Shown here: one piece after another, positions 11,400 to 32,449 of the stretch
Position numbering within the stretch: position 1 is the first letter of the stretch
Layout of the letters: each line of letters starts with the position of its first letter
Source: a virus
Lineage: Duplodnaviria > Heunggongvirae > Uroviricota > Caudoviricetes
Direction: 5' to 3' (one strand)
Virus record (IMG/VR): IMGVR_UViG_2571042438_000008
DNA length: 47,797 nt
Translations under genes and position numbers: made by a program
Notes under the pieces: generated by a model
What the model was told of the DNA's origin: nothing
The model's database searches: none
Seen by the model: the letters and a program-made list of their open reading frames with translations, nothing else

Positions 11400-11658
11400 T
11401 CGAGGCTAATCAAATGGTGGTGAGCCGTACAGGGTTAGCCTTACCGGACACAATGACGAACCGGCGCGGATTTCTCCGCCCCTGTACGACCCACCATAAT
11501 TTGGGCGTAACAGTGCTCTACGCATAAAAAAACCGCTAACGCGGTATGCGCCATCGTGTTATTCAGGAGGCTAATCCCGGCCGTAGATTTTGCTACGGCT
11601 CGGAAAGTGTCCACCAATGGCGCATTTATGTCAATACGGCGGGATTTTAACAGAGACA

Positions 11659-11673
11659 ACCACATAGCGTGGG
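11659..11673. promoter_or_regulatory. Degenerate operator-like dyad ACCAC-ATAGC-GTGGG upstream of the antirepressor operon
   Basis: 9/10 arm match to the ACCAC-N5-GTGGT dyad. Confidence 0.3.
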
Positions 11674-12116
11674 TTTATTGGTAGGCAGAAACAAAAAAAC
11701 CGCCCTATTGAGGACGGTTCTTTCGTGCTGATCGGATTCGCGGTCCTTTCAGCATTACGTTGTTGTATAAACAACCACGCAAGCACAAGCAGCAAGTTAA
11801 TTTTACCCAAAAGGTAATAATAGTCCACTATTATGCTTCAAAAAATTGTGGTTCTTGTTGTGCCTGCAAACTCACAGATTGTGGGTAGGTTACTGATTTT
11901 GTGAAAATAAACGAGTTTTTTCGTTTAATTTCTTTCCTATTACTAATCTTAAAATAATCGTAAAATACCTGTGGACCTTCCCGCCGATTCGCACCCGGGC
12001 ACCGACTTTAGGGGAGGATTCTCCGTTGCCGTACATGCAAGCACAAGCAGCCGTGCTTGCTCTCGCGTTGTTTTCGTCGGTGGGGATGCCGTGAAACGGC
12101 CTGTAAGGGCCATACA

Positions 12117-12239
12117 ATGAAAAAATACTGTATGTGTATTTTTATCGTTGTTACTGGGGCTTTGTTTACGCCACATGGGGAGGGTTGGAAGATTACTGAT
12201 AACGCTCTGAATGTGACGATAAACATTAGCAGCAAGTAG
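12117..12239 (+). CDS. Small hydrophobic peptide (40 aa; MKKYCMCIFIVVTGALF...)
   Basis: ATG 12117 in an otherwise ORF-poor, hairpin-rich region; followed 7 nt later by a strong intrinsic terminator. Confidence 0.3.
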   Translation: MKKYCMCIFIVVTGALFTPHGEGWKITDNALNVTINISSK

Positions 12240-12245
12240 CGATTA

Positions 12246-12268
12246 GGCCCCTTCGGGGGCCTTTTTTT
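12246..12268 (+). terminator. Rho-independent terminator
   Basis: GGCCCC-TTCG-GGGGCC stem-loop followed by T7. Confidence 0.8.
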
Positions 12269-12782: not shown

Positions 12783-13451
12783 TTATGCGGCAGTAGTCAG
12801 AGCCTCAAGCTGGTTGATAATCCCCTGAATAACGTCGTCTGCCTTTTTGCGTGGCGCAACGTATGAGCACTCAATGAGGCTTAAGCCCTTATCCTGAGCT
12901 TTGCTCAGAGCTGGCTTGTGGGGAATGTACTTATCGACAACAAAGTATGGCGTATTAGCCAGGTACTCTTGGGCTTCAATATAGTCAGCTTCGTTTTCAG
13001 CCGCGCCGGAAAACACCATGCAAATTTTCTTGATTGGTACACCCTTTTTAACGATGCCGTGAGCAGTGTTAACGGTGGTTTCCAGGTCATCGGTAGAGAA
13101 TCGGGTTGGCAAAATAACCATATCCAGAAATTCAGATAGCTTCGGTACTGATTCAGATGCGTAGGCACCGCCATCGACGATAACCAGGTCGTATACTTCT
13201 GATTCGATGATTTTCTGGACTTGTGATGGTGTGCCGCACGGCTGCGCCGCGATTGCTGGTTCGATATTGTTGGCCATTCTGCGTTGTACCCAACGCGTTA
13301 CCGTTCCGTTAAGCACATCCATATCGATCAGGCATACATTCCAGCCAGCCTTTGCATAAGCAACTGCTAAAGCACGGGCAATTGTTGATTTGGTTACGCC
13401 GCCTTTTCCGTTGAAAATACCTACAGAGATAGTCATTTGTCGAGGCTCCAT
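12783..13451 (-). CDS. parA: ParA/ParF-type partition ATPase (type Ib)
   Basis: Deviant Walker A GIFNGKGGVTKST; ~220 aa; the true start may be the ATG at 13436, which has a GGAG RBS. Confidence 0.85.
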   Translation of the reverse strand: MEPRQMTISVGIFNGKGGVTKSTIARALAVAYAKAGWNVCLIDMDVLNGTVTRWVQRRMANNIEPAIAAQPCGTPSQVQKIIESEVYDLVIVDGGAYASESVPKLSEFLDMVILPTRFSTDDLETTVNTAHGIVKKGVPIKKICMVFSGAAENEADYIEAQEYLANTPYFVVDKYIPHKPALSKAQDKGLSLIECSYVAPRKKADDVIQGIINQLEALTTAA

Positions 13452-23199: not shown

Positions 23200-23275
23200 G
23201 GCCCCTTAGCTCAGTGGTTAGAGCAGGCGACTCATAATCGCACGGTCATCGGTTCAAATCCGGTAGGGGCCACCA
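23200..23275 (+). tRNA. tRNA with CAU anticodon (Met or Ile2/lysidine type), 76 nt including CCA
   Basis: Cloverleaf elements readable: acceptor GGCCCCT/AGGGGCC, D-arm AGCTCAGTGGTTAGAGC, anticodon loop CTCATAA, T-arm GGTTCAAATCC, 3' CCA; close to E. coli tRNA-Ile2 as recalled. Confidence 0.85.
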
Positions 23276-23583: not shown

Positions 23584-24171
23584 ATGGAGGCAATTGCATT
23601 GTTTAATCTGATTTATGCAGATCCCCCCTGGGAATACAAAGATAAGTGTAAGGATGGGAATCGTGGAGCTGGTTTTAAGTATCCAACGATGAAAGCTGAG
23701 GATATTGCTCGTATTCCTGTCTGGCAGCTTGCTAATCCTGAATCGTGTTTGTTGGCCATGTGGTGGGTTCCGACTCAGCCAGAAGAAGCGTTGCTGGTGG
23801 TGAAAGCATGGGGATTCAGGCTTATGACCATGAAGGGCTTCACATGGAACAAATGTGGTAGCCGACAACCAGATAAGCTGGTGATGGGGATGGGGCATAT
23901 GACTCGTGCAAACAGTGAAGATTGCTTGTTTGCGGTAAAAGGCAAATTGCCGACCCGCCTTGATGCGGGGATCATTCAGTCGTTTACATCGCCTCGTCTG
24001 GAGCATTCTCGGAAGCCTGATGTGGTTCGTGACAAGCTGGTAAGGCTGTTAGGTGATGTTCCTCGTATTGAGCTGTTTTCTCGCGGTGATTTACCTGATG
24101 GTTGGCATGGCTGGGGCAACCAGTGCAATGGAGGTATCCAGTTGCATGATGCTCTCTGGCAAGTGGCATAA
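23584..24171 (+). CDS. MT-A70-family N6-adenine methyltransferase
   Basis: DPPW motif (LIYADPPWEY) and family-typical N-terminal layout. Confidence 0.8.
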   Translation: MEAIALFNLIYADPPWEYKDKCKDGNRGAGFKYPTMKAEDIARIPVWQLANPESCLLAMWWVPTQPEEALLVVKAWGFRLMTMKGFTWNKCGSRQPDKLVMGMGHMTRANSEDCLFAVKGKLPTRLDAGIIQSFTSPRLEHSRKPDVVRDKLVRLLGDVPRIELFSRGDLPDGWHGWGNQCNGGIQLHDALWQVA

Positions 24172-25313: not shown

Positions 25314-25463
25314 ATGGTCTTGGCATTTTTCTGATGATTGTGGCCGTGTGTTTTTGTATCTCGCTGGTGGTTATTGCTGGTGTCCTGTGGCGCATCTTAG
25401 TGGCGCAGAGAGCTTTTCGGCTTAAGCGGGAGCAAATGCGCCTTGATTTCTATCGAAAGTAAC
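25311..25463 (+). CDS. Small membrane protein (50 aa; MNGLGIFLMIVAVCFCISLVVIAGVLW...)
   Basis: Hand-translated ORF below the track size cutoff; hydrophobic core then a basic tail; terminator follows. Confidence 0.3.
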
Positions 25464-25470
25464 TCTTACA

Positions 25471-25499
25471 GCCTCGCGGTGTCGCGGGGCTTTTATTTT
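25471..25499 (+). terminator. Intrinsic terminator
   Basis: GCCTCGCG-GTGT-CGCGGGGC stem-loop followed by TTTTATTTT. Confidence 0.75.
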
Positions 25500-25591
25500 C
25501 AGGTGATGTTATGGAAAAGAAAGAAGATAAACCGATTGCCATTGGTGCAGAGTCTGTTCCGTTTAAGTTTGAATGATCCCAACTGGTAACA

Positions 25592-25921
25592 ATGCGTATC
25601 AGTGAAGAGTGGGGAGAAGTACAAGCCCGTGCTCAGTATGCAAATGGCGAAAACCAGTATTTGATTCACTATCAGGCGGCTGATGGTCGTGCTACCACAG
25701 AGTGGTTCGGTGAATCGATGTTGATTGCGATGGAAGATGATCGTTATCCAGGCTGCCCTGTTTTTGCCTGTGTTGATTTGCCAGAAGGCGCGGTACTTGA
25801 AGACGACAAAGAAGAATGCTCGTCTGATGGCGAACTTGTCATTACCGGAATCGTTGATGGTAAGCCGGAATACTCTCGTATTGAGGTAAATAACGGCCGC
25901 ATCCGTTTGATCCCTGCGTAA
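25592..25921 (+). CDS. Hypothetical acidic protein
   Basis: 109-aa ORF. Confidence 0.4.
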   Translation: MRISEEWGEVQARAQYANGENQYLIHYQAADGRATTEWFGESMLIAMEDDRYPGCPVFACVDLPEGAVLEDDKEECSSDGELVITGIVDGKPEYSRIEVNNGRIRLIPA

Positions 25922-26155
25922 CGCATTACAGCAGCTCTTGTGCTTATCAGGGGCTGCGATAATGCGCAAACCAAAGCTGCCTCATTAACTCCAGCTCGCT
26001 GTGGAGTTAATGCTGGTGGCTTTTTTATTACTGGAAGGTGGGCGACCGCCGTCAGTTGCGACCTGACGACAGTCATTCATACCCACAGGGTGCCGTGGAT
26101 ACAAACCGAGGCCCACTTGCTTGCACAAGCGAGGGGATTTTAGCGGATAAACGGC

Positions 26156-26779
26156 ATGACAAAACATCTTAATGTGGTTTCTTTACCACTTTCTGTGTTG
26201 ATTGGTTATGAAAAGAACGCTCGCACACACTCCGTGGAGCAGGTAGATCAGATTGTTGCCAGCATACAGGAGTACGGATGGACTAATCCGATCCTGATAG
26301 ACGAGAACAACGTTGTAATTGCTGGTCATGGTCGAATTGCTGCGGCCACTCAGTTGGGGATGGATGAGGTTCCCTGCATTGTTCTGGAAGGGCTAACGGA
26401 GAATCAGAAGAAGGCATATCGTCTGGCCGACAACCGTATTCCGCTGAATGCTGGTTGGGATGAAGAGTTGTTAAGCGCGGAGCTTGCAGATCTTGCGGCC
26501 GATGATTTTGCTCTGGACTCAATTGGTTTTACTCAGCGCGAACTGGATAACTTATTGAGTGCGGCGGTCTACGATGACACAGAGGGTATGGATATCCCAT
26601 TTGAGAAGGATGAGGCCAAATCAGGCGTAAAAGTTCAGTACCTGTCATTTGGAGGTCATAAAATCCCGGCAACGGATGAGGAAGCGGATCGTTTTGACTG
26701 CGCGGTGTCTCGTTATGTTGATGATAATGGCAGCTATATCGGATTTGTATCCGCATTGCTGGCTGGGGAGGTGTGCTGA
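26156..26779 (+). CDS. ParB N-terminal (ParB/Srx nuclease-like) domain protein, paralog 1
   Basis: LIDENNVVIAGHGRIAAATQLGMDEVPCIVL; paralogous to 29446..30036. Confidence 0.7.
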   Translation: MTKHLNVVSLPLSVLIGYEKNARTHSVEQVDQIVASIQEYGWTNPILIDENNVVIAGHGRIAAATQLGMDEVPCIVLEGLTENQKKAYRLADNRIPLNAGWDEELLSAELADLAADDFALDSIGFTQRELDNLLSAAVYDDTEGMDIPFEKDEAKSGVKVQYLSFGGHKIPATDEEADRFDCAVSRYVDDNGSYIGFVSALLAGEVC

Positions 26780-28152
26780 TGCTTCACCTCAATTACGACA
26801 TAACGCACCTACGCGGCGCGGAATATAACCCGCGTTTTATCGGTGAGGATGATCTTGCGAGGCTGGCGGAAAGCGTCAGGGAGCTGGGGCTTGTGAAGCC
26901 ATTGATAGTGCGCGGCGATTTGCTGGTGGCGGGACACCAAAGGACGAAGGCGCTACGTAAGTTGGGAATAACGCGTGCTGCGGTGTATGTGTTGCCCTGT
27001 GAAACGACGGTATACGACGAAGTACGGTTTAACCAACTGCATAACGGAACGGATTTTGATAGCGGAGATGAGCGTTGCAGGGTGTCCGGTCTGGAAGATA
27101 AGCATGGTTTTGTTCAGGTATCGGCAAGCCAGATCTCAGGCAATATGCGCGCGAAAATGGCATATGTTCGAAAGAACATAGCGGAACTGGTTATCAAGTA
27201 TGGTCCGTGGGGTGGTTGTGTTGCTACTCAGTCTGGCGAGGTTATTCACTGTGCTCAGTATGCATTAGCAGCGAAGATGACGCGCACACCGCTAACGGTG
27301 TTTGTGATCCCTGATGTTGAGAAGGAAAAATACCAAAGTTATCTGAATAAAACTTATGGTGTATTTGAGTATTCTCATCTGGAGAAAACAACATACATCC
27401 AGACGTATGCGCAGCTTATGCGGTTGCGTAATGGTGGCAGCCTGAAATCAAACCTGTATGAGTCGTTGATCCTCCCGATCATTGCCAAGACGCCAAGAGG
27501 AATTGATTTTGGTTCGGGGCAGGGAGACTACGCGCGAATGCTCAGGGCAAAGGGATATAACCTGCATGATCTCGAGCTTTTCCGCCGTAAGGGCGCTGGA
27601 AACACTCTGGATAGGACCGCAACAAACCGGATGATTGATACGCTGGTGGACGACTTAAAAACGCGAGGGCGTTACGACTACGTGATTTGCGATAGCGTTT
27701 TGAACTCGGTCGATAGTGTCGAGGCTGAATGGTCCGTTCTGACGGTTCTGAAAGGCTTGTGTAAAGCTGGTGGGTCAATATTCTTTTCTGGCCGTAGCCG
27801 TGGAGAGCTGGAAACCGTCCTGAAACAAACACAAGCGGCGAGTTCCAAAAGCCGGCTTTATTTTATTGATCATAACGGTTTTACCGCGTTGTACCGGAAG
27901 GGGCACTGGTTTTACCAGAAGTTTCACTCTGATGATGAAGTGAAGCAGTTGTGTCGTGTACATGGTTTCAGGATTAAGCGGTCAATATTCAACTGTAAGA
28001 GCTGGTATTTGCACGTCATTAACGATGATTCCCTTAGTTGGGCGAGTCTGGAGAAAGCTGTTCGTTTTGAGTTTGAGTTGCCGTTGCCTGGTGGTTCAAC
28101 AATCGGACGATCTGATGATGTGCTGGCGGCTTTCCGGCCGTTGATTAAGTAG
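26773..28152 (+). CDS. ParB N-terminal domain fused to a putative SAM-dependent methyltransferase domain
   Basis: N-terminal LVKPLIVRGDLLVAGHQRTKALRKLG (ParB-like); glycine-rich IDFGSGQGDYARML (motif I-like); no DPPY/NPPY seen. Confidence 0.55.
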   Translation: MLMLHLNYDITHLRGAEYNPRFIGEDDLARLAESVRELGLVKPLIVRGDLLVAGHQRTKALRKLGITRAAVYVLPCETTVYDEVRFNQLHNGTDFDSGDERCRVSGLEDKHGFVQVSASQISGNMRAKMAYVRKNIAELVIKYGPWGGCVATQSGEVIHCAQYALAAKMTRTPLTVFVIPDVEKEKYQSYLNKTYGVFEYSHLEKTTYIQTYAQLMRLRNGGSLKSNLYESLILPIIAKTPRGIDFGSGQGDYARMLRAKGYNLHDLELFRRKGAGNTLDRTATNRMIDTLVDDLKTRGRYDYVICDSVLNSVDSVEAEWSVLTVLKGLCKAGGSIFFSGRSRGELETVLKQTQAASSKSRLYFIDHNGFTALYRKGHWFYQKFHSDDEVKQLCRVHGFRIKRSIFNCKSWYLHVINDDSLSWASLEKAVRFEFELPLPGGSTIGRSDDVLAAFRPLIK

Positions 28153-28168
28153 TGTGTAGGAGGCGCTG

Positions 28169-28888
28169 GTGGCTGACAGAATTGAGATAAAGATGGATTT
28201 TTCTTCTCAGGATATTCAACGACAACTCCAGCGCCTTGAAGAACGCGAATTGCCGTTCGCAATGGCGCTTGCGGCAACCAGAACGGCAAAGGCTTCTCAG
28301 GCTGCGATTAAGAATGAAATTAATCGGGTATTTGACAGGCCCACGCCGTGGATTCAGAACTCTACTTACGTTTTGGCCGCAAAGAAGAGTGATCCTACAG
28401 CCATTGTGTATGCTCGTGAATGGGGAGGAACGCCAGCCCCTGTAACGTTGACTCCGCAAATCGAAGGTGGACAACGACAGTACAAACGCTCAGAAGGGGC
28501 GCTAAGGGCTGGTGGATATTTGCCTAACGGCTGGCAGCTTGCTCCTGGTCCCGGTGCAAAGCTGGACAAATACGGGAATATTTCGCGGGGGCAATTACAG
28601 CAGGTCTTATCTGGCCTAAGAGTTCAGCGAGATGCGCATCAAAATCGCCGTCAGGGCAAGCCTACGGAGTTTTTTGTTGTTCGACCTGGTACAAGTAACC
28701 CGCTTCAACCAGGCGTCTGGCAGCGCGTTGGGCGGCGTCCTACGTTGATCCTTACGTTTATCCAGCAACCTAACTATTCGCAGCGTCTTGATTGGCATGG
28801 CGTGGCGCTGCGTGCTGGTGAGGATGCGTTTGCTGATGAAGTCACAAAGGCTATTGATGACATTCTTTCTAAGACTTTCTCTCGTTAA
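28169..28888 (+). CDS. Hypothetical protein
   Basis: 239-aa ORF after the ParB-methyltransferase fusion. Confidence 0.45.
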   Translation: MADRIEIKMDFSSQDIQRQLQRLEERELPFAMALAATRTAKASQAAIKNEINRVFDRPTPWIQNSTYVLAAKKSDPTAIVYAREWGGTPAPVTLTPQIEGGQRQYKRSEGALRAGGYLPNGWQLAPGPGAKLDKYGNISRGQLQQVLSGLRVQRDAHQNRRQGKPTEFFVVRPGTSNPLQPGVWQRVGRRPTLILTFIQQPNYSQRLDWHGVALRAGEDAFADEVTKAIDDILSKTFSR

Positions 28889-29445
28889 TCATCGTGTGGT
28901 TGATGGTGTTGTTATGCAGAGTGTATTCACTGTGTTCTGTAGCGTCGCTCGCTGGCTGTCTGTGGGTGGGCACGAGCATCGTTTCATCGTCCGGCAGAAT
29001 TGGGTCCTTCTGGCCAAAAGCGTTGGATGCGGGTCATTCGAACCCCGATGTTCGGCTAGCTAAACGTGAAAAAAGTTAGGTTAAAAGTTGCGGTAAAAGA
29101 AATTTACCCATCTCATTGAAAAATATTGGGAAAACGTGATTTTTTGCTGTGCTTGTGATGGTGAAAAGAAAGTAGAGAATTTTCTTTTAGATCATCAAGA
29201 TACGCGCAGATCTTTAACCAATGCAAGGCTGTTTTGATAAAAATCTTTATAAATCATGCAAATACATCCAATCTTTTAACCAAAACACCATCGGAAGATC
29301 CTTTTTACTTATAAAAACTTAATAAAACCAGATAATTATGCTGGTTTGTGTGATTTTTTATGAGTAAAAAGATCGTCATTTTTCTCTTTTAGTATCAATA
29401 AGTTAAACATTTTTCTTTAACCTGTTGTGTTATGGCGGTTAAAAA

Positions 29446-30036
29446 ATGGCTCTAAAAATCGAATATTTACCAGTCGGTAAGCTGCTCAGATATGCCAAAA
29501 ATTCACGGACTCATTCAGATGAGCAAGTTGAACAGTTGGTGAACAGTATCCGTGAGTTCGGTTTCACTAATCCTGTGCTGATCGATGAAAAGAATGAACT
29601 GATTGCGGGGCATGGGCGGCTTGCAGCAGCCGAAATTCTGGAAATGGATAAAGTTCCGGCGATTCGGTTGAGTAACCTTTCTGAAAAACAGAAGAAGGCG
29701 TACAGGATTGCAGATAACAAGCTGGCCTTAAATGCTGGCTGGGATATGCAGCTTCTGGCCGAAGAAGTCAAAGAGTTAATGGATGATGATTTTGATATTG
29801 ATCTGCTTGGGTTTAATGATGCAGAGCTTGACGAAATGTTAAGCGATGAACAGCCGCAGGAAGAAGACGATAATTCTTCCCCTGTTGTTCAAATTAAGTA
29901 CCTGGCTATTGATAAAGAACGTATTCCCGCGACGGATATGGAAATTGCATTGTTGCTGGATGTTTATCGTCAGTACCACGACGCGCATGAAACGCATGAG
30001 GGATTTGTTCAGTATCTTGCTAATGGTTGCAAGTAA
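29446..30036 (+). CDS. ParB N-terminal domain protein, paralog 2, immediately upstream of terminase
   Basis: LIDEKNELIAGHGRLAAAEILEMDKVPAIRL; clearly alignable with paralog 1 over the N-terminal ~110 aa by eye. Confidence 0.7.
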   Translation: MALKIEYLPVGKLLRYAKNSRTHSDEQVEQLVNSIREFGFTNPVLIDEKNELIAGHGRLAAAEILEMDKVPAIRLSNLSEKQKKAYRIADNKLALNAGWDMQLLAEEVKELMDDDFDIDLLGFNDAELDEMLSDEQPQEEDDNSSPVVQIKYLAIDKERIPATDMEIALLLDVYRQYHDAHETHEGFVQYLANGCK

Positions 30037-30587
30037 TGGCCATCGTCAGTAAGTCAGAGTTTGCCCGCCGGAAAGGTATTTCTCCGGCAATGGTTACGAA
30101 GCTCTGTCGTTCCGGTCGCATTCCAGTGCTGAAAAGCGGCAAGCTGGATTTTGATAAAGCCAGTGCGGCTTATGAAGCGAGCCGACAGGTTGGTCGTGAG
30201 GTATCTGCTGAAAATGGAAAAAGAGGGCATGGGATATCTTCGGAACAACCAGAGTTACCCGCTGATGATGCCGGATTAGCTGGTGGTACTTCCGGTGTTG
30301 CGGTGCAATTCAACAAGGCTAAGACCGCAGAAAAAATTTATCAGGCAAAGCTGAAACGCCTTGAATTTGAAGAAAAGGAAGGCTCTCTCATCGCTAAAGA
30401 TGCGGTCAGGGATGATGCATTTCTGGCAGCTAATGAATTGCGTAGCCGCTTATTTAGTATTGCTCCAAGAGCAGCTCCCCGTTGTGAAGGCAAAACAGCC
30501 AGGGAGATCGAACGCATTATTGAAGACGAGATTAATTTTGCGCTTCAGGCGCTCCAGGAATCCCGATTTATTAAGCAGGAAGAATAA
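30027..30587 (+). CDS. Terminase small subunit (Nu1-like, putative)
   Basis: N-terminal HTH-like SKSEFARRKGISPAMVTKLCRSGRIP; directly upstream of the large terminase; alternative start ATG 30036. Confidence 0.6.
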   Translation: MQVMAIVSKSEFARRKGISPAMVTKLCRSGRIPVLKSGKLDFDKASAAYEASRQVGREVSAENGKRGHGISSEQPELPADDAGLAGGTSGVAVQFNKAKTAEKIYQAKLKRLEFEEKEGSLIAKDAVRDDAFLAANELRSRLFSIAPRAAPRCEGKTAREIERIIEDEINFALQALQESRFIKQEE

Positions 30588-30592
30588 ACCTC

Positions 30593-32449
30593 ATGGGCGA
30601 AACAGTATGGAGCACCGCTTTTTTCCGTGCGCTTCGCCCTAAATCACGGCTAACTGTTTCCGAATGGGCTGATAAGTATCGTCATGTAGCGCCGGGAACG
30701 TCTCCAGAGCCAGGGCCGTGGCGTACAAGCCGAGTGCCATATTTGCGTGAACCAATGGATGTTATTGGTGACGCTGATACAGAAACAGTAGTGATGCAAT
30801 GTAGCTCGCAAATTGGTAAATCCGAATTACAGCTAAATGTTATGGGTTACTTTGCAGATCAGGAGCCATCTCCTCAGTTGATGATTTATCCAACGGTAGA
30901 GGCGGCTGAGGCTTTTTCAAAGGAGCGTATTGATCCGACGTTCAAATATTCCCCTGGTTTGAAACACAAGCTGCATGAAGGGAAAGAGGGGCGCGGTGCA
31001 GCCAAAAAGTCCAGCACGACTATACGTATGAAGCATTACGCTGGTGGATATATAGCACTTGTTGGTGCTAATTCCCCAGCAGGTCTTGCATCCAGGCCAA
31101 TTCGAATACTGTTAGCTGATGAGATTGATCGTTACGGTGTGACGCAGGAGGGCGACCCACTAAAACTAGGTATTCAGCGTACTACCAACTTTCATAATCG
31201 TAAGAAAGTTTTTGTTTCTACTCCTGTTTTGGAGGAAACGAGCAAAATCCACAAGTGGTTTAAGCTCTCCGATCAGCGTTACTACCATGTTCCTTGCCCA
31301 TGTTGTGGCACCATGCAGGTGATGAAATGGTCGCAAGTCAGATGGGATAAGAGCGATTCAGGTGAGGCGTTACCGGAAACGGCCAGATATGAGTGCTGTG
31401 AGTGCGGCGGGATTATGCGCGGATCTGGTAAACCAGACGTTGATTGGTTGGCGAAGGGGGTATGGATAGCTGAACATACTGGAGTTAAAGGTATTGTTGG
31501 TTTTCATATTAACAGTCTTTACTCCCCGTGGGTTGCATTGTCAGAGCTGGTTGAAGAATTTACGGAAGCAACCAGAAACCGCGATAAAAATGGATTAATG
31601 GAGTTTATTAACCTTAAGCTGGGTGAGCCATGGAAAGAGGATGCTAAAGACGATATCGATCCTGAATACTTGTTGCAACGCAGAATAAGGTTTGAAGAGT
31701 TTTTACCAGATGATGTTTTATTGTTAAGTGCTGGTGTTGACGTACAGGACACGTATTTAGTTTGTGAATTGGTCGGTTGGGGAAAAGGTAAGGAGTCATG
31801 GGGGATAGAATATAAAATATTCCCAGGTGATCCCGCACAAGATGTTGTCTGGAAACAACTTGATGAATACTTACTCCGTAGCTGGTCATTCCGTGACGGT
31901 CGAAAATTACAGATTTCTTCCGTTTGTATTGACTCTGGTGGGCATTTTACGACAGAGGTATATCGCTTTACTAAGCCGAGAGAATCAAGGCGAATATACT
32001 CTATCAGGGGGCGTGGTGGGGTAGGTTTACCGTTTATAGGAAAGCCAAGTAATAATAACCGTGTGGGTGCTATGTTGTTTAATTTGGGGGTTGATGATGG
32101 TAAAGGGACCATCATGGCAAGAATTAAACTACATGATCCTGGTCCTGGTTATATGCATTTCCCATTAGATTCTGACAGAGGATATGATACCGAATACTTT
32201 AAAGGATTATTATCAGAGAAGAAAATATTTGAATATAAAAATGGGCAGACAAAAGAAAAGTGGGTAAAAGTCTACGAGCGTAACGAGCCTCTTGATTGCC
32301 GTAACTATGCAACTGCCGCGATGGAAATTCTGAACCCTAATTTTAACTGGCTTGCCGAACAGGAAATGCGAGGTAATGTGTATGTGCAGAACTCGTCAGG
32401 TATACGTAGAAGACGCCGTAGAGTTATAAGTAAAGGCGTAACCATATAG
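30593..32449 (+). CDS. Terminase large subunit (lambda gpA family)
   Basis: 618 aa; gpA-like motifs in the translation (VSEWADKYRHV..., LADEIDRY); position before gpW-like and portal. Confidence 0.85.
   Translation: MGETVWSTAFFRALRPKSRLTVSEWADKYRHVAPGTSPEPGPWRTSRVPYLREPMDVIGDADTETVVMQCSSQIGKSELQLNVMGYFADQEPSPQLMIYPTVEAAEAFSKERIDPTFKYSPGLKHKLHEGKEGRGAAKKSSTTIRMKHYAGGYIALVGANSPAGLASRPIRILLADEIDRYGVTQEGDPLKLGIQRTTNFHNRKKVFVSTPVLEETSKIHKWFKLSDQRYYHVPCPCCGTMQVMKWSQVRWDKSDSGEALPETARYECCECGGIMRGSGKPDVDWLAKGVWIAEHTGVKGIVGFHINSLYSPWVALSELVEEFTEATRNRDKNGLMEFINLKLGEPWKEDAKDDIDPEYLLQRRIRFEEFLPDDVLLLSAGVDVQDTYLVCELVGWGKGKESWGIEYKIFPGDPAQDVVWKQLDEYLLRSWSFRDGRKLQISSVCIDSGGHFTTEVYRFTKPRESRRIYSIRGRGGVGLPFIGKPSNNNRVGAMLFNLGVDDGKGTIMARIKLHDPGPGYMHFPLDSDRGYDTEYFKGLLSEKKIFEYKNGQTKEKWVKVYERNEPLDCRNYATAAMEILNPNFNWLAEQEMRGNVYVQNSSGIRRRRRRVISKGVTI

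What the first reader, a model, noticed from the sequence alone, without database searches (positions are those of the whole stretch)
26156..30036. Two ParB-like paralogs and a ParB-methyltransferase fusion bracket the region just upstream of terminase
26156..26779 and 29446..30036 are clear paralogs with a ParB/Srx-type N-terminal domain, clearly alignable by eye over the N-terminal ~110 aa. The gene between them (26773..28152) fuses a third ParB-like N-terminus to a domain with a glycine-rich SAM-binding-like motif, and an MT-A70 adenine methyltransferase lies further upstream. ParB-like nuclease domains next to terminase are recurrent in phages but functionally unresolved; together with the methyltransferases this could be a packaging-initiation module or an anti-restriction DNA-modification module.
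Basis: partly seen in the sequence, partly recalled or inferred. Interest (0 to 1): 0.6.

Follow-up and report, generated by a model that had tools for sequence, protein, structure and literature searches.

The report
Phage ParB-fold and methyltransferase cassette
Next to the DNA-packaging genes of a common E. coli phage-plasmid sit three proteins with a ParB-type nucleotide-binding fold, one of them fused to a methyltransferase of unknown target; the domain calls are correct, the fusion type was catalogued in 2025, and its function is still unknown.

Summary

The window is a roughly 48-kb circular E. coli phage-plasmid. Its partition locus (ParA plus a small ORF) lies elsewhere, so these are not partition proteins, and nothing supports a nuclease role.

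- ParB1 plus ParB-MT is a conserved, translationally coupled cassette: 53 of 58 loci keep the small ParB just upstream.
- Some genomes fuse the two genes into one protein.
- The cassette sits just upstream of large terminases of at least three families, from Proteobacteria to Bacteroides phages.
- The probable cos site (about 29032-29043) lies between ParB-MT/ORF239 and ParB2-TerS-TerL. ParB2 belongs to the packaging module and occurs without the cassette elsewhere.
- The methyltransferase lacks DNA amino- and C5-methyltransferase motifs and resembles small-molecule and RNA enzymes.

Kaljevic et al. (PNAS 2025) catalogued this fusion and purified a 41-42% identical member. My best reading is a late-expressed heteromeric nucleic-acid modification module, but the substrate is unproven. 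I class it as a new member of a known, uncharacterised kind.

The parts
23584..24171 (+). Stand-alone MT-A70 family adenine methyltransferase (195 aa, DPPW motif)
   Evidence: Pfam MT-A70 80.9 bits against a 23.9-bit cutoff. phrog_359 E=2e-102. PADLOC MTase_II E=1e-67. 72-73% identical to the 'adenine methylase' of Stx2a phages.
26156..26779 (+). ParB1: acidic stand-alone ParB/Srx-fold protein (207 aa, pI 4.3). Nucleotide-binding domain 1-94, helical segment 103-138, disordered acidic linker 139-159, small C-terminal domain 160-204. It is the conserved partner of ParB-MT.
   Evidence: Homologous small ParB lies within 400 nt upstream of ParB-MT in 53 of 58 loci. Its stop overlaps the ParB-MT ATG.
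26779..28152 (+). ParB-MT: ParB/Srx domain (aa ~1-95, GHQR P-motif), conserved middle domain (aa ~99-205, possibly a degenerate second ParB-like fold) and class I SAM methyltransferase (aa ~230-420). 457 aa from ATG 26779, or 459 aa from GTG 26773.
28169..28888 (+). ORF239: basic 239-aa protein (pI 10.1), the last gene before the probable cos site. Labelled 'minor tail' in PHROGs.
   Evidence: phrog_1924 E=2.5e-97 with no Pfam hit. Homologs are the last gene at the right end of Pseudomonas F10-like cos phages and lie just before the cos gap in a Yersinia prophage.
28889..29445 (.). AT-rich intergenic region holding the probable cos site. The putative 12-nt cohesive end is 29032-29043 (GGTCATTCGAAC), around the palindrome TTCGAA.
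   Evidence: Yersinia phage records vB_YpM_39/41 end at window 29031 and start at 29032. vB_YpM_44 ends at 29043 and starts at 29044. GC is 0.39 for 29001-30000. This is inferred, not measured, and the records are labelled circular.
29446..30036 (+). ParB2: paralog of ParB1 (196 aa, pI 4.5). It is the first gene after the probable cos site and is translationally coupled to TerS.
   Evidence: Pfam ParB_N 33.7 bits. 48% identical to ParB1. It forms a clade distinct from the ParB1/partner clade. TAATG overlap with the TerS start. It occurs with ORF239-cos-TerS-TerL but without ParB-MT in a Yersinia mollaretii prophage.
30036..30587 (+). Terminase small subunit
   Evidence: phrog_57 E=7e-42.
30593..32449 (+). 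Terminase large subunit, lambda gpA type
   Evidence: GpA_ATPase 255 bits and GpA_nuclease 285 bits.

Best explanation
The region holds two linked modules of a temperate phage-plasmid, both transcribed with the packaging genes.

Module 1 is a conserved two-gene cassette. ParB1 is an acidic stand-alone ParB/Srx nucleotide-binding-fold protein with no DNA-binding domain. ParB-MT is a basic enzyme built from its own ParB/Srx domain, a conserved middle domain and a class I SAM methyltransferase.

I propose that the two proteins form one complex, probably through engagement of their ParB folds and the ParB1 C-terminal domain, and probably controlled by ATP or another NTP. I propose that this complex loads or activates the methyltransferase on replicated phage DNA before packaging. 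Progeny genomes would then carry a protective or regulatory methyl mark.

Module 2 is ParB2. It belongs to the ORF239-cos-TerS-TerL packaging module as an optional accessory. It acts either as a second in-trans partner for a DNA methyltransferase (for example the stand-alone MT-A70) or as a helper at cos.

Shown: the folds, the paralogy, the cassette conservation, the gene fusions and the synteny with terminase.
Inferred: the physical complex, NTP control, DNA as the substrate and the anti-restriction benefit.
For: - Folds and motifs: ParB/Srx fold with the GxxR P-motif (GHGR, GHQR) and conserved Box I Arg and Box III Asn in all three proteins. Methyltransferase fold with invariant motif I and the acidic motif II residue E268.
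- Cassette: a small ParB lies within 400 nt upstream of ParB-MT in 53 of 58 unique loci, and overlaps or abuts it in 49. This includes Bacteroides phage BS-TP3. TGATG coupling is present here.
- Gene fusions: P0500 and P0501 fuse a whole small ParB to ParB-MT, and P0413 fuses only the small-ParB C-terminal domain.
- Timing and position: the first large ORF downstream is a large terminase in at least 44 of 60 loci. The families are GpA 21, Terminase_6 20 and TerL_ATPase 3, plus 6 Terminase_3 hits that may overlap the Terminase_6C set. This argues for a generic late function rather than a partnership with one particular terminase.
- Link to DNA methylation: aa 1-150 of ParB1 and ParB2 match the N-terminal domain of ParB-N6_N4 DNA methyltransferases. 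The hits are PADLOC MTase_II E~1e-40, phrog_498 E~1e-52, and 40-60% identity to phage 'DNA methyltransferases'.
- Charge: ParB-MT is basic (pI 9.2) and the small ParBs are acidic (pI 4.3-4.5).
- Precedents: phage ParB-like proteins with the same domain layout (nucleotide-binding domain, helices, disordered linker, C-terminal domain, no DNA-binding domain) activate a cognate DNA-modifying dioxygenase on dsDNA (PMC13229309). GmrS/GmrSD doublets pair a ParB_n-only gene with a ParB_n-effector gene (PMC12373910).
- Related biochemistry: a 41-42% identical family member was purified and has a pocket R->A control construct, of the kind that paper used as controls for NTP binders. That paper reports ATP binding for a SAM-methyltransferase fusion (PMC12704722).
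Against: - The methyltransferase domain has no (D/N/S)PP(Y/F/W) or PC motif. Its motif IV region is CDSVLNSV.
- Its best structural neighbours are small-molecule and tRNA methyltransferases, and none is a DNA methyltransferase.
- No methylome or biochemical data exist for any member.
- The complex between ParB1 and ParB-MT is inferred only from synteny and gene fusion.
- In the dioxygenase precedent, NTP-pocket mutations had no effect, so NTP control is uncertain.
- The residues used for CTP hydrolysis in canonical ParB (Gln and Glu) are Asn and His here.
- A Brochothrix phage and one IMG/VR locus have ParB-MT without a small ParB.
- Natural variants of this element have lost or disrupted the cassette, so it is dispensable at least for plasmid maintenance.
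Confidence: 0.42

Rival explanations
1. Packaging accessory. One or more of the ParB-fold proteins, ParB2 above all, help terminase recognise or cleave cos or start packaging. This would be analogous to the HNH proteins that HK97-like terminases need, or to host factors at lambda cosB.
For: - ParB2 is the first gene after the probable cos site and is translationally coupled to TerS.
- The ORF239-cos-ParB2-TerS-TerL arrangement recurs in Serratia and Yersinia prophages, once without ParB-MT.
- The ParB1+ParB-MT cassette sits just upstream of terminase in most loci.
Against: - The small ParBs are acidic and have no recognisable DNA-binding domain.
- The same cassette precedes at least three unrelated large-terminase families, so a specific protein partnership is unlikely.
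- Pseudomonas phage F10 has the ORF239 homolog and a gpA-type terminase but no ParB. Lambda-type terminases cut cos by themselves (established knowledge).
- The ParB1/ParB2 type of domain is mostly found fused to DNA methyltransferases.
Confidence: 0.2
2. The methyltransferase does not act on DNA. ParB-MT would methylate an RNA, a protein or a small molecule such as a nucleotide or a defence signal. The ParB/Srx domains would then serve as ATP-binding or catalytic modules, as in sulfiredoxin, SerK and SbnI.
For: - There is no DNA-methyltransferase catalytic motif.
- ParB/Srx-fold enzymes that act on small molecules or proteins are among the structural neighbours of ParB1.
- ATP rather than CTP binding is reported for a SAM-methyltransferase fusion.
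Against: - The partner ParB clade is tied to DNA methyltransferases.
- The conserved position before terminase across phyla points to a substrate common to all these phages.
- The methyltransferase domain is basic.
- No candidate small-molecule pathway genes are conserved next to the cassette.
Confidence: 0.22
3. Plasmid partition. The ParB-like proteins would be the centromere-binding partners that segregate the phage-plasmid.
For: The element is a plasmid prophage, and some records annotate these genes as 'chromosome (plasmid) partitioning protein'.
Against: - TIGR00180 scores are 16-40 bits against a 58.45-bit cutoff.
- There is no HTH or DNA-binding domain in the ParB1 model.
- There is no (L/F/I)G(K/R)G(L/F/I) ParA-binding motif in the sequences.
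- The ParA-type ATPase lies about 13 kb away on the other strand with its own 82-aa partner ORF.
- The cassette occurs in integrated prophages and in virulent or non-plasmid phages without ParA.
Confidence: 0.03
4. Nuclease or NTPase weapon. The ParB-like domains would act as DNases, as reported for plasmid Osa, against host or competitor DNA.
For: Only the historic 'ParB-like nuclease' name and annotations as 'nuclease'.
Against: - No nuclease domain was detected.
- The closest structural relatives are NTP-binding ParB/PadC/KorB/Srx proteins.
- The conserved residues are those of the nucleotide pocket.
Confidence: 0.05

Closest known systems
ParB-CTPase fold fused to Methyltransf_23 (PF13489), catalogued as phage-enriched by Kaljevic et al., PNAS 2025 (PMC12704722). 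The tested member was uvig_65837_18.
   Same: Same architecture and same family. The readable fragments of their construct are 42% (ParB part) and 41% (methyltransferase part) identical to the window protein, with the same YNPR, AGHQRTKA, RFNQxHNG, DFGxG and CDxVxNSV motifs.
   Different: That paper gives no substrate, no partner protein and no genomic context. The obligatory small-ParB partner, the gene fusions, the pre-terminase synteny and the cos-bracketing arrangement come from this analysis. Which NTP their protein bound is not stated unambiguously in the text available to me.
ParB-N6_N4 DNA methyltransferase fusions of phages and plasmids (phrog_498, PADLOC MTase_II PDLC03229)
   Same: ParB1 and ParB2 match the first ~150 residues of these enzymes strongly (E about 1e-40 to 1e-52, 40-60% identity). 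The match covers the ADNxLxLNAGWD helical segment.
   Different: ParB1 and ParB2 carry a ~45-aa C-terminal domain instead of a methyltransferase. The methyltransferase encoded next to ParB1 belongs to a different class, without a DPPY-type motif.
5mYOX-associated phage ParB activators, e.g. ParB176 (O'Toole et al., PNAS 2026, PMC13229309)
   Same: Same domain layout: nucleotide-binding domain, short helical segment, ~50-aa disordered linker and small C-terminal domain, with no DNA-binding domain. They are encoded next to a DNA-modifying enzyme near terminase genes.
   Different: The partner enzyme here is a methyltransferase that has its own ParB domain, not a dioxygenase. No dioxygenase is annotated in the element. 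Sequence relatedness to ParB176 could not be tested because no sequences were available.
GmrS/GmrSD two-gene Type IV restriction systems (PMC12373910)
   Same: A two-gene architecture in which one gene encodes only a ParB_n (DUF262) domain and the neighbour encodes ParB_n plus an effector domain.
   Different: Those are host defence nucleases that sense modified DNA. Here the effector is a methyltransferase encoded by a phage.
Canonical ParB/Spo0J/Noc CTP-dependent DNA clamps
   Same: The N-terminal fold and the phosphate-binding residues (Box I Arg, Box II GxxR, Box III Asn).
   Different: No HTH, no canonical C-terminal dimerisation domain detected, no ParA partner and no ParA-binding motif. 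The catalytic Gln and Glu are replaced by Asn and His.

Membership tests
ParB/Srx (ParB-CTPase) fold, PF02195 | Sequence match to the ParB_N profile at or above the curated cutoff | tested here: inconclusive
   ParB2 33.7 bits (above 26.3). ParB1 25.4 and ParB-MT 24.3 bits (just below). All three are strongly supported by PHROG ParB families.
ParB/Srx (ParB-CTPase) fold, PF02195 | Three-dimensional fold like ParB N-domain or sulfiredoxin | tested here: met
ParB/Srx (ParB-CTPase) fold, PF02195 | GxxR P-motif (Box II) with Box I Arg and Box III Asn for nucleotide phosphate binding | tested here: met
   GHGR in ParB1 and ParB2, GHQR in ParB-MT. R23, G57-R60 and N93 are invariant or nearly so.
ParB/Srx (ParB-CTPase) fold, PF02195 | Actual NTP binding or hydrolysis | not testable with these tools
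   Indirect only: a 41-42% identical homolog was purified, and an R->A pocket control was built for it.
Canonical partition ParB (TIGR00180) | Full-length match including the HTH DNA-binding domain | tested here: not met
   16-40 bits against a 58.45-bit cutoff, N-domain only. No HTH in the ParB1 model.
Canonical partition ParB (TIGR00180) | Encoded in an operon with parA and carrying an N-terminal ParA-binding motif | tested here: not met
   The ParA-type gene is at 12783-13451 on the minus strand with its own small partner ORF. No LG(K/R)GL-type motif is present in the sequences.
ParB-CTPase-Methyltransf_23 fusion family (phrog_5475; PMC12704722) | N-terminal ParB fold plus C-terminal PF13489-type methyltransferase in one ~460-aa protein | tested here: met
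   Pfam domains. phrog_5475 aligned 3-459 of 459, E=1.6e-265. 308 clusters of uniform length. 41-42% identity to the published construct.
Class I SAM-dependent methyltransferase | Rossmann-like methyltransferase fold with motif I GxGxG and the acidic motif II residue | tested here: met
DNA N6-adenine / N4-cytosine methyltransferases | Catalytic (D/N/S)PP(Y/F/W) motif after strand 4 | tested here: not met
   ParB-MT has CDSVLNSV at that position, with D307, N311 and S312 invariant. It has no PF01555, PF02384 or PF05063 hit. The separate MT-A70 protein does meet this feature (DPPW).
DNA C5-cytosine methyltransferases | PC catalytic dipeptide and ENV motif; PF00145 match | tested here: not met
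   No such Pfam hit. Cys306 is not invariant and is Ser in a tested bacterial homolog.
ParB-type activators of DNA-modifying enzymes (5mYOX-ParB class) | Nucleotide-binding domain plus C-terminal domain, no DNA-binding domain, encoded next to the enzyme | tested here: met
   ParB1 model architecture. Adjacency and coupling to ParB-MT.
ParB-type activators of DNA-modifying enzymes (5mYOX-ParB class) | Cognate Fe(II)/2OG dioxygenase partner; demonstrated activation | tested here: not met
   No dioxygenase is annotated anywhere in the near-identical plasmid p142_C. Activation cannot be tested here.

The most novel reading that the evidence does not exclude
ParB1 and ParB-MT would form an NTP-gated heteromeric ParB-fold complex that installs a non-canonical methyl mark on phage DNA just before packaging. 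The mark would not be N6-adenine, N4-cytosine or C5-cytosine; a ring-nitrogen or backbone methylation is one possibility. That would make this a new enzymatic class of DNA modification. ParB2 would couple the same logic to the cos-terminase module.
Probability: 0.18. Interest if true: 0.8.

Novelty: new member of a known kind. Interest (0 to 1): 0.48.

Why it matters
ParB-fold proteins outside chromosome segregation are a current open area. The 2025 survey flagged ParB-Methyltransf_23 fusions as phage-enriched and of unknown role.

This element offers a natural, abundant and genetically tractable E. coli system. It is present in 74 of 5426 complete E. coli genomes, and the exact ParB2 sequence is indexed in more than 11,000 blocks of the assembly collection. 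It contains both a ParB-fold enzyme with its dedicated ParB-fold partner and a second paralog wired to terminase.

If the methyltransferase acts on DNA, its motif content implies an unrecognised catalytic type. That would be relevant to restriction evasion, to methylome interpretation and to the spread of phage-plasmids. If it acts on something else, the strict pre-terminase synteny across phyla needs a new explanation.

Tried and rejected
- Partition role: rejected, because there is a separate ParA locus, no HTH and sub-threshold TIGR00180 scores.
- Nuclease role: no supporting domain or motif.
- Second ParB-like fold in the middle domain of ParB-MT (aa 99-205). Domain-versus-domain hhalign found nothing. 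A profile search of PDB sequences found nothing. Profile-profile comparison with the small ParBs gave only a weak, in-register match (probability 3%). The identical secondary-structure order makes it plausible, but I could not superpose structures, so it is left as a suggestion.
- Repeats or binding sites in the 28889-29445 gap. Several short AT-rich repeats were found, but the GGTTAAAAG-type motif is not enriched window-wide beyond chance (15 observed against 14.2 expected). No cosB or parS-like site is claimed.
- Promoter and terminator scan of 25400-30700: nothing above shuffled expectation except one strong hairpin at 25470-25491.
- Rfam: no RNA family in the finding's region.
- The homology search with ParB2 returned only ~99% identical sequences and gave no diversity. 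ParB1 was used instead.
- BFVD fold search found no full-length viral structural match and no functional lead.
- Supplementary data of PMC13229309 were not available, so ParB176 could not be compared.
- Assignment of the element to the pSLy3 phage-plasmid group was considered and dropped. That group is SSU5-related, and I did not test membership.

Full report
**What the window is.** The 4.6-kb region is 99.9% identical to E. coli plasmid p142_C (47,545 bp, circular). It is present in 74 of 5426 complete E. coli genomes, and 79 of the 82 places are on plasmids. It is also in induced phages: Escherichia phage vB_EcoM-613R2 and Yersinia phages vB_YpM_39/41/44. The annotated plasmid has RepA, a ParA-family gene, a RelE/ParE toxin, lambda-type head genes with a gpA terminase, and a contractile tail. 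The window is therefore a phage-plasmid.

**Check of the observation.**
- All ORFs are present as described.
- ParB1 (26156-26779) and ParB2 (29446-30036) share 48% identity over their whole length, E=7e-62.
- Pfam ParB_N scores are 33.7 bits for ParB2, 25.4 for ParB1 and 24.3 for the central protein, against a 26.3-bit cutoff. PHROG ParB families match at E~1e-75.
- The central protein matches Methyltransf_23 above threshold (32.6 bits).
- The upstream 195-aa protein is a clear MT-A70 enzyme with DPPW (80.9 bits). It is 72-73% identical to the adenine methylases of Stx2a phages.
- The central gene probably starts at ATG 26779, overlapping the ParB1 stop (TGATG).
- The ParB2 stop likewise overlaps the TerS ATG (TAATG).

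**These are not partition proteins.**
- TIGR00180 scores are far below cutoff.
- The ParB1 model has no HTH.
- The ParA-type ATPase lies at 12783-13451 on the other strand, followed by its own 82-aa ORF.
- The small ParBs are very acidic (pI 4.3 and 4.5), whereas ParB-MT is basic (pI 9.2).

**cos lies inside the bracket.**
- Two of the three Yersinia phage records end at window 29031 and restart at 29032. The third ends at 29043 and restarts at 29044.
- This 12-nt offset falls in the AT-rich 557-bp gap between ORF239 and ParB2. It surrounds a TTCGAA palindrome.
- It fits a lambda-like 12-nt cohesive end for a gpA terminase.
- This is an inference, because the records are labelled circular.
- If it is right, ParB1, ParB-MT and ORF239 are the last genes of the virion chromosome, and ParB2-TerS-TerL are the first.

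**ParB1 plus ParB-MT is a conserved cassette.**
- ParB-MT has 715 homologs of uniform ~460-aa length at 45-60% identity, from Enterobacteria to Bradyrhizobium. In a library of 1.84 billion representatives, 308 clusters at 50% identity reach E<=1e-30.
- The family has many invariant residues across all three domains.
- In contexts from genomes, metagenomes and IMG/VR, a ~190-260-aa small ParB lies immediately upstream. It is a full-length homolog of ParB1 and ParB2.
- Of 58 unique loci with enough upstream sequence, 53 have the small ParB within 400 nt and 49 have it overlapping or abutting. Only two lack it.
- Bacteroides phage BS-TP3 shows ParB-like gp51, methyltransferase gp52, TerS gp53 and TerL gp54.
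- Two proteins (P0500, P0501) fuse an entire small ParB to the N-terminus of ParB-MT. A third (P0413) fuses only the small-ParB C-terminal domain. Together these argue that the two gene products work as one unit.

**Position relative to terminase.** In 60 loci, the first ORF of at least 380 aa downstream of the cassette is a large terminase in at least 44. The counts are GpA 21, Terminase_6 20 and TerL_ATPase 3. Six further Terminase_3 hits may overlap the Terminase_6C set. The same cassette precedes at least three unrelated terminase families. This fits a generic late function on a substrate shared by all these phages better than a specific partnership with one terminase.

**ParB2 is a separate story.**
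- A second small ParB downstream of the cassette is found only in close relatives of this element, including a Serratia proteamaculans prophage.
- In a neighbour-joining tree, ParB2 groups with P0316, P0270 and P0354, apart from the ParB1/partner clade. The duplication is therefore old and both copies have been maintained.
- A Yersinia mollaretii prophage has ORF239, the cos gap, a ParB2-like gene, TerS and TerL, but no ParB1/ParB-MT. It carries a stand-alone N6_N4 methyltransferase upstream.
- Pseudomonas phage F10 has the ORF239 homolog as its last gene and a terminase at its left end, but no ParB.
- ParB2 is thus an optional accessory of the packaging module.
- Natural variants of the E. 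coli element have deleted the cassette or carry an IS in ParB1.

**What the small ParBs resemble.**
- Residues 1-150 of ParB1 and ParB2 match the N-terminal domain of ParB-N6_N4 DNA methyltransferases very strongly: PADLOC MTase_II E~1e-40, phrog_498 E~1e-52, and 40-60% identity to phage 'DNA methyltransferases'.
- A PHROG family that matches both the ParB domain and MT-A70, consistent with a fusion of the two, also exists (phrog_21315).
- The ParB1 model shows a nucleotide-binding domain, a helical segment, a disordered acidic linker and a small beta-hairpin plus two-helix C-terminal domain.
- This is the layout described for phage ParB proteins that activate their cognate thymine dioxygenase on dsDNA (PMC13229309).
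- GmrS/GmrSD doublets give another precedent for a ParB_n-only gene next to a ParB_n-effector gene (PMC12373910).

**What the methyltransferase resembles.**
- It has motif I (IDFGSGQGDY) and the acidic motif II residue. After strand 4 it reads CDSVLNSV, with no DPPY-type or PC motif.
- Its structural neighbours are small-molecule, tRNA and cap methyltransferases and the SAM sensor SAMTOR. None is a DNA methyltransferase.
- DNA as the substrate is therefore inferred from association, not from the catalytic domain.
- The middle domain (aa 99-205) repeats the secondary-structure order of the ParB domain. It gives a weak in-register profile match, VIH[CA]AQYALAA against IIAGHGRxxAA. Other sequence tests found nothing. 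A degenerate second ParB fold is possible but not shown.

**Nucleotide pocket.** The phosphate-binding Arg of Box I, the GxxR of Box II and the Asn of Box III are conserved. The Gln and Glu used for CTP hydrolysis in canonical ParB align with Asn and His (with residue roles). Binding is likely; the hydrolysis chemistry is uncertain.

**Literature.**
- Kaljevic et al. [quoted passage not shown]
- Their gut-phage construct uvig_65837_18 is 41-42% identical to the window protein in both readable fragments.
- It has an R->A pocket control construct, of the kind that paper used as controls for NTP binders, and the paper reports ATP binding for a SAM-methyltransferase fusion.
- I found no statement there about the partner gene, the fusions or the terminase synteny.

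**Verdict.** The region is best read as two modules. The first is a conserved heteromeric ParB-fold/methyltransferase cassette, expressed with the packaging genes and most likely modifying phage nucleic acid before packaging. The second is an extra ParB paralog embedded in the cos-terminase module. The target of the methyltransferase, the role of NTPs and the role of ParB2 remain open. The kind is already catalogued, so this is a new member of a known but uncharacterised kind. It has moderate interest, because it is abundant, lives in E. coli and is directly testable.

Noticed in passing
window 11413-12267: Rfam gathering-score hits to C4 antisense RNA (11413-11501, minus strand), isrK (11526-11599, minus strand) and ryfA (11971-12267, plus strand). 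A P1/P7-type antisense immunity RNA in a 48-kb lambda-head, contractile-tail phage-plasmid.
   Followed up: no
window 28169-28888; L099 5769-6488; L102 2858-3601: ORF239 (basic, pI 10.1; PHROG label 'minor tail protein') is always the last gene before the genome end or cos gap. This holds here, in a Yersinia mollaretii prophage and in Pseudomonas F10-like cos phages. The position suggests a cos or packaging accessory rather than a tail protein.
   Followed up: partly
window 29032-29043: Probable 12-nt cohesive end (GGTCATTCGAAC, around a TTCGAA palindrome). It is inferred from the 12-nt offset between the start and end points of three Yersinia phage records.
   Followed up: partly
P0500, P0501, P0413 (metagenomic proteins): Natural fusions of a complete small ParB (P0500, P0501), or of only its C-terminal domain (P0413), to the N-terminus of ParB-MT.
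   Followed up: yes
L088 and L090 (relatives of the window): One relative lacks ParB1, ParB-MT and ORF239 but keeps ParB2-TerS-TerL; its TerL is split and IS21 genes are nearby. Another has an IS3-family insertion inside ParB1.
   Followed up: no
window 25470-25491: Strong terminator-like hairpin (9-bp stem, 7 GC pairs, T-run) after the small ORFs downstream of MT-A70. It may separate the lysis/MT-A70 transcription unit from the ParB1 operon.
   Followed up: no
L002 9936-17196 (Bradyrhizobium barranii prophage): The ParB+ParB-MT cassette there is followed by genes for Amidoligase_2, GGACT/AIG2-like proteins and a small MTS/N6_Mtase-like protein, before a Terminase_3 gene. This may be a modification or peptide-tagging cluster.
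   Followed up: no
window 23584-24171 vs L001 16307-16893: The MT-A70 gene is intact in the window (195 aa) but is annotated as a frameshifted pseudogene in the near-identical plasmid p142_C.
   Followed up: no
window 23200-23272: A tRNA gene (annotated tRNA-Ile in p142_C) sits between the lysis genes and MT-A70.
   Followed up: no
L006 2210-2644 and L002 9419-9883: A conserved 144-154-aa protein of unknown function directly follows ParB-MT in two distant loci (a metagenomic contig and a Bradyrhizobium prophage). It is absent from the window, where ORF239 occupies that place.
   Followed up: no
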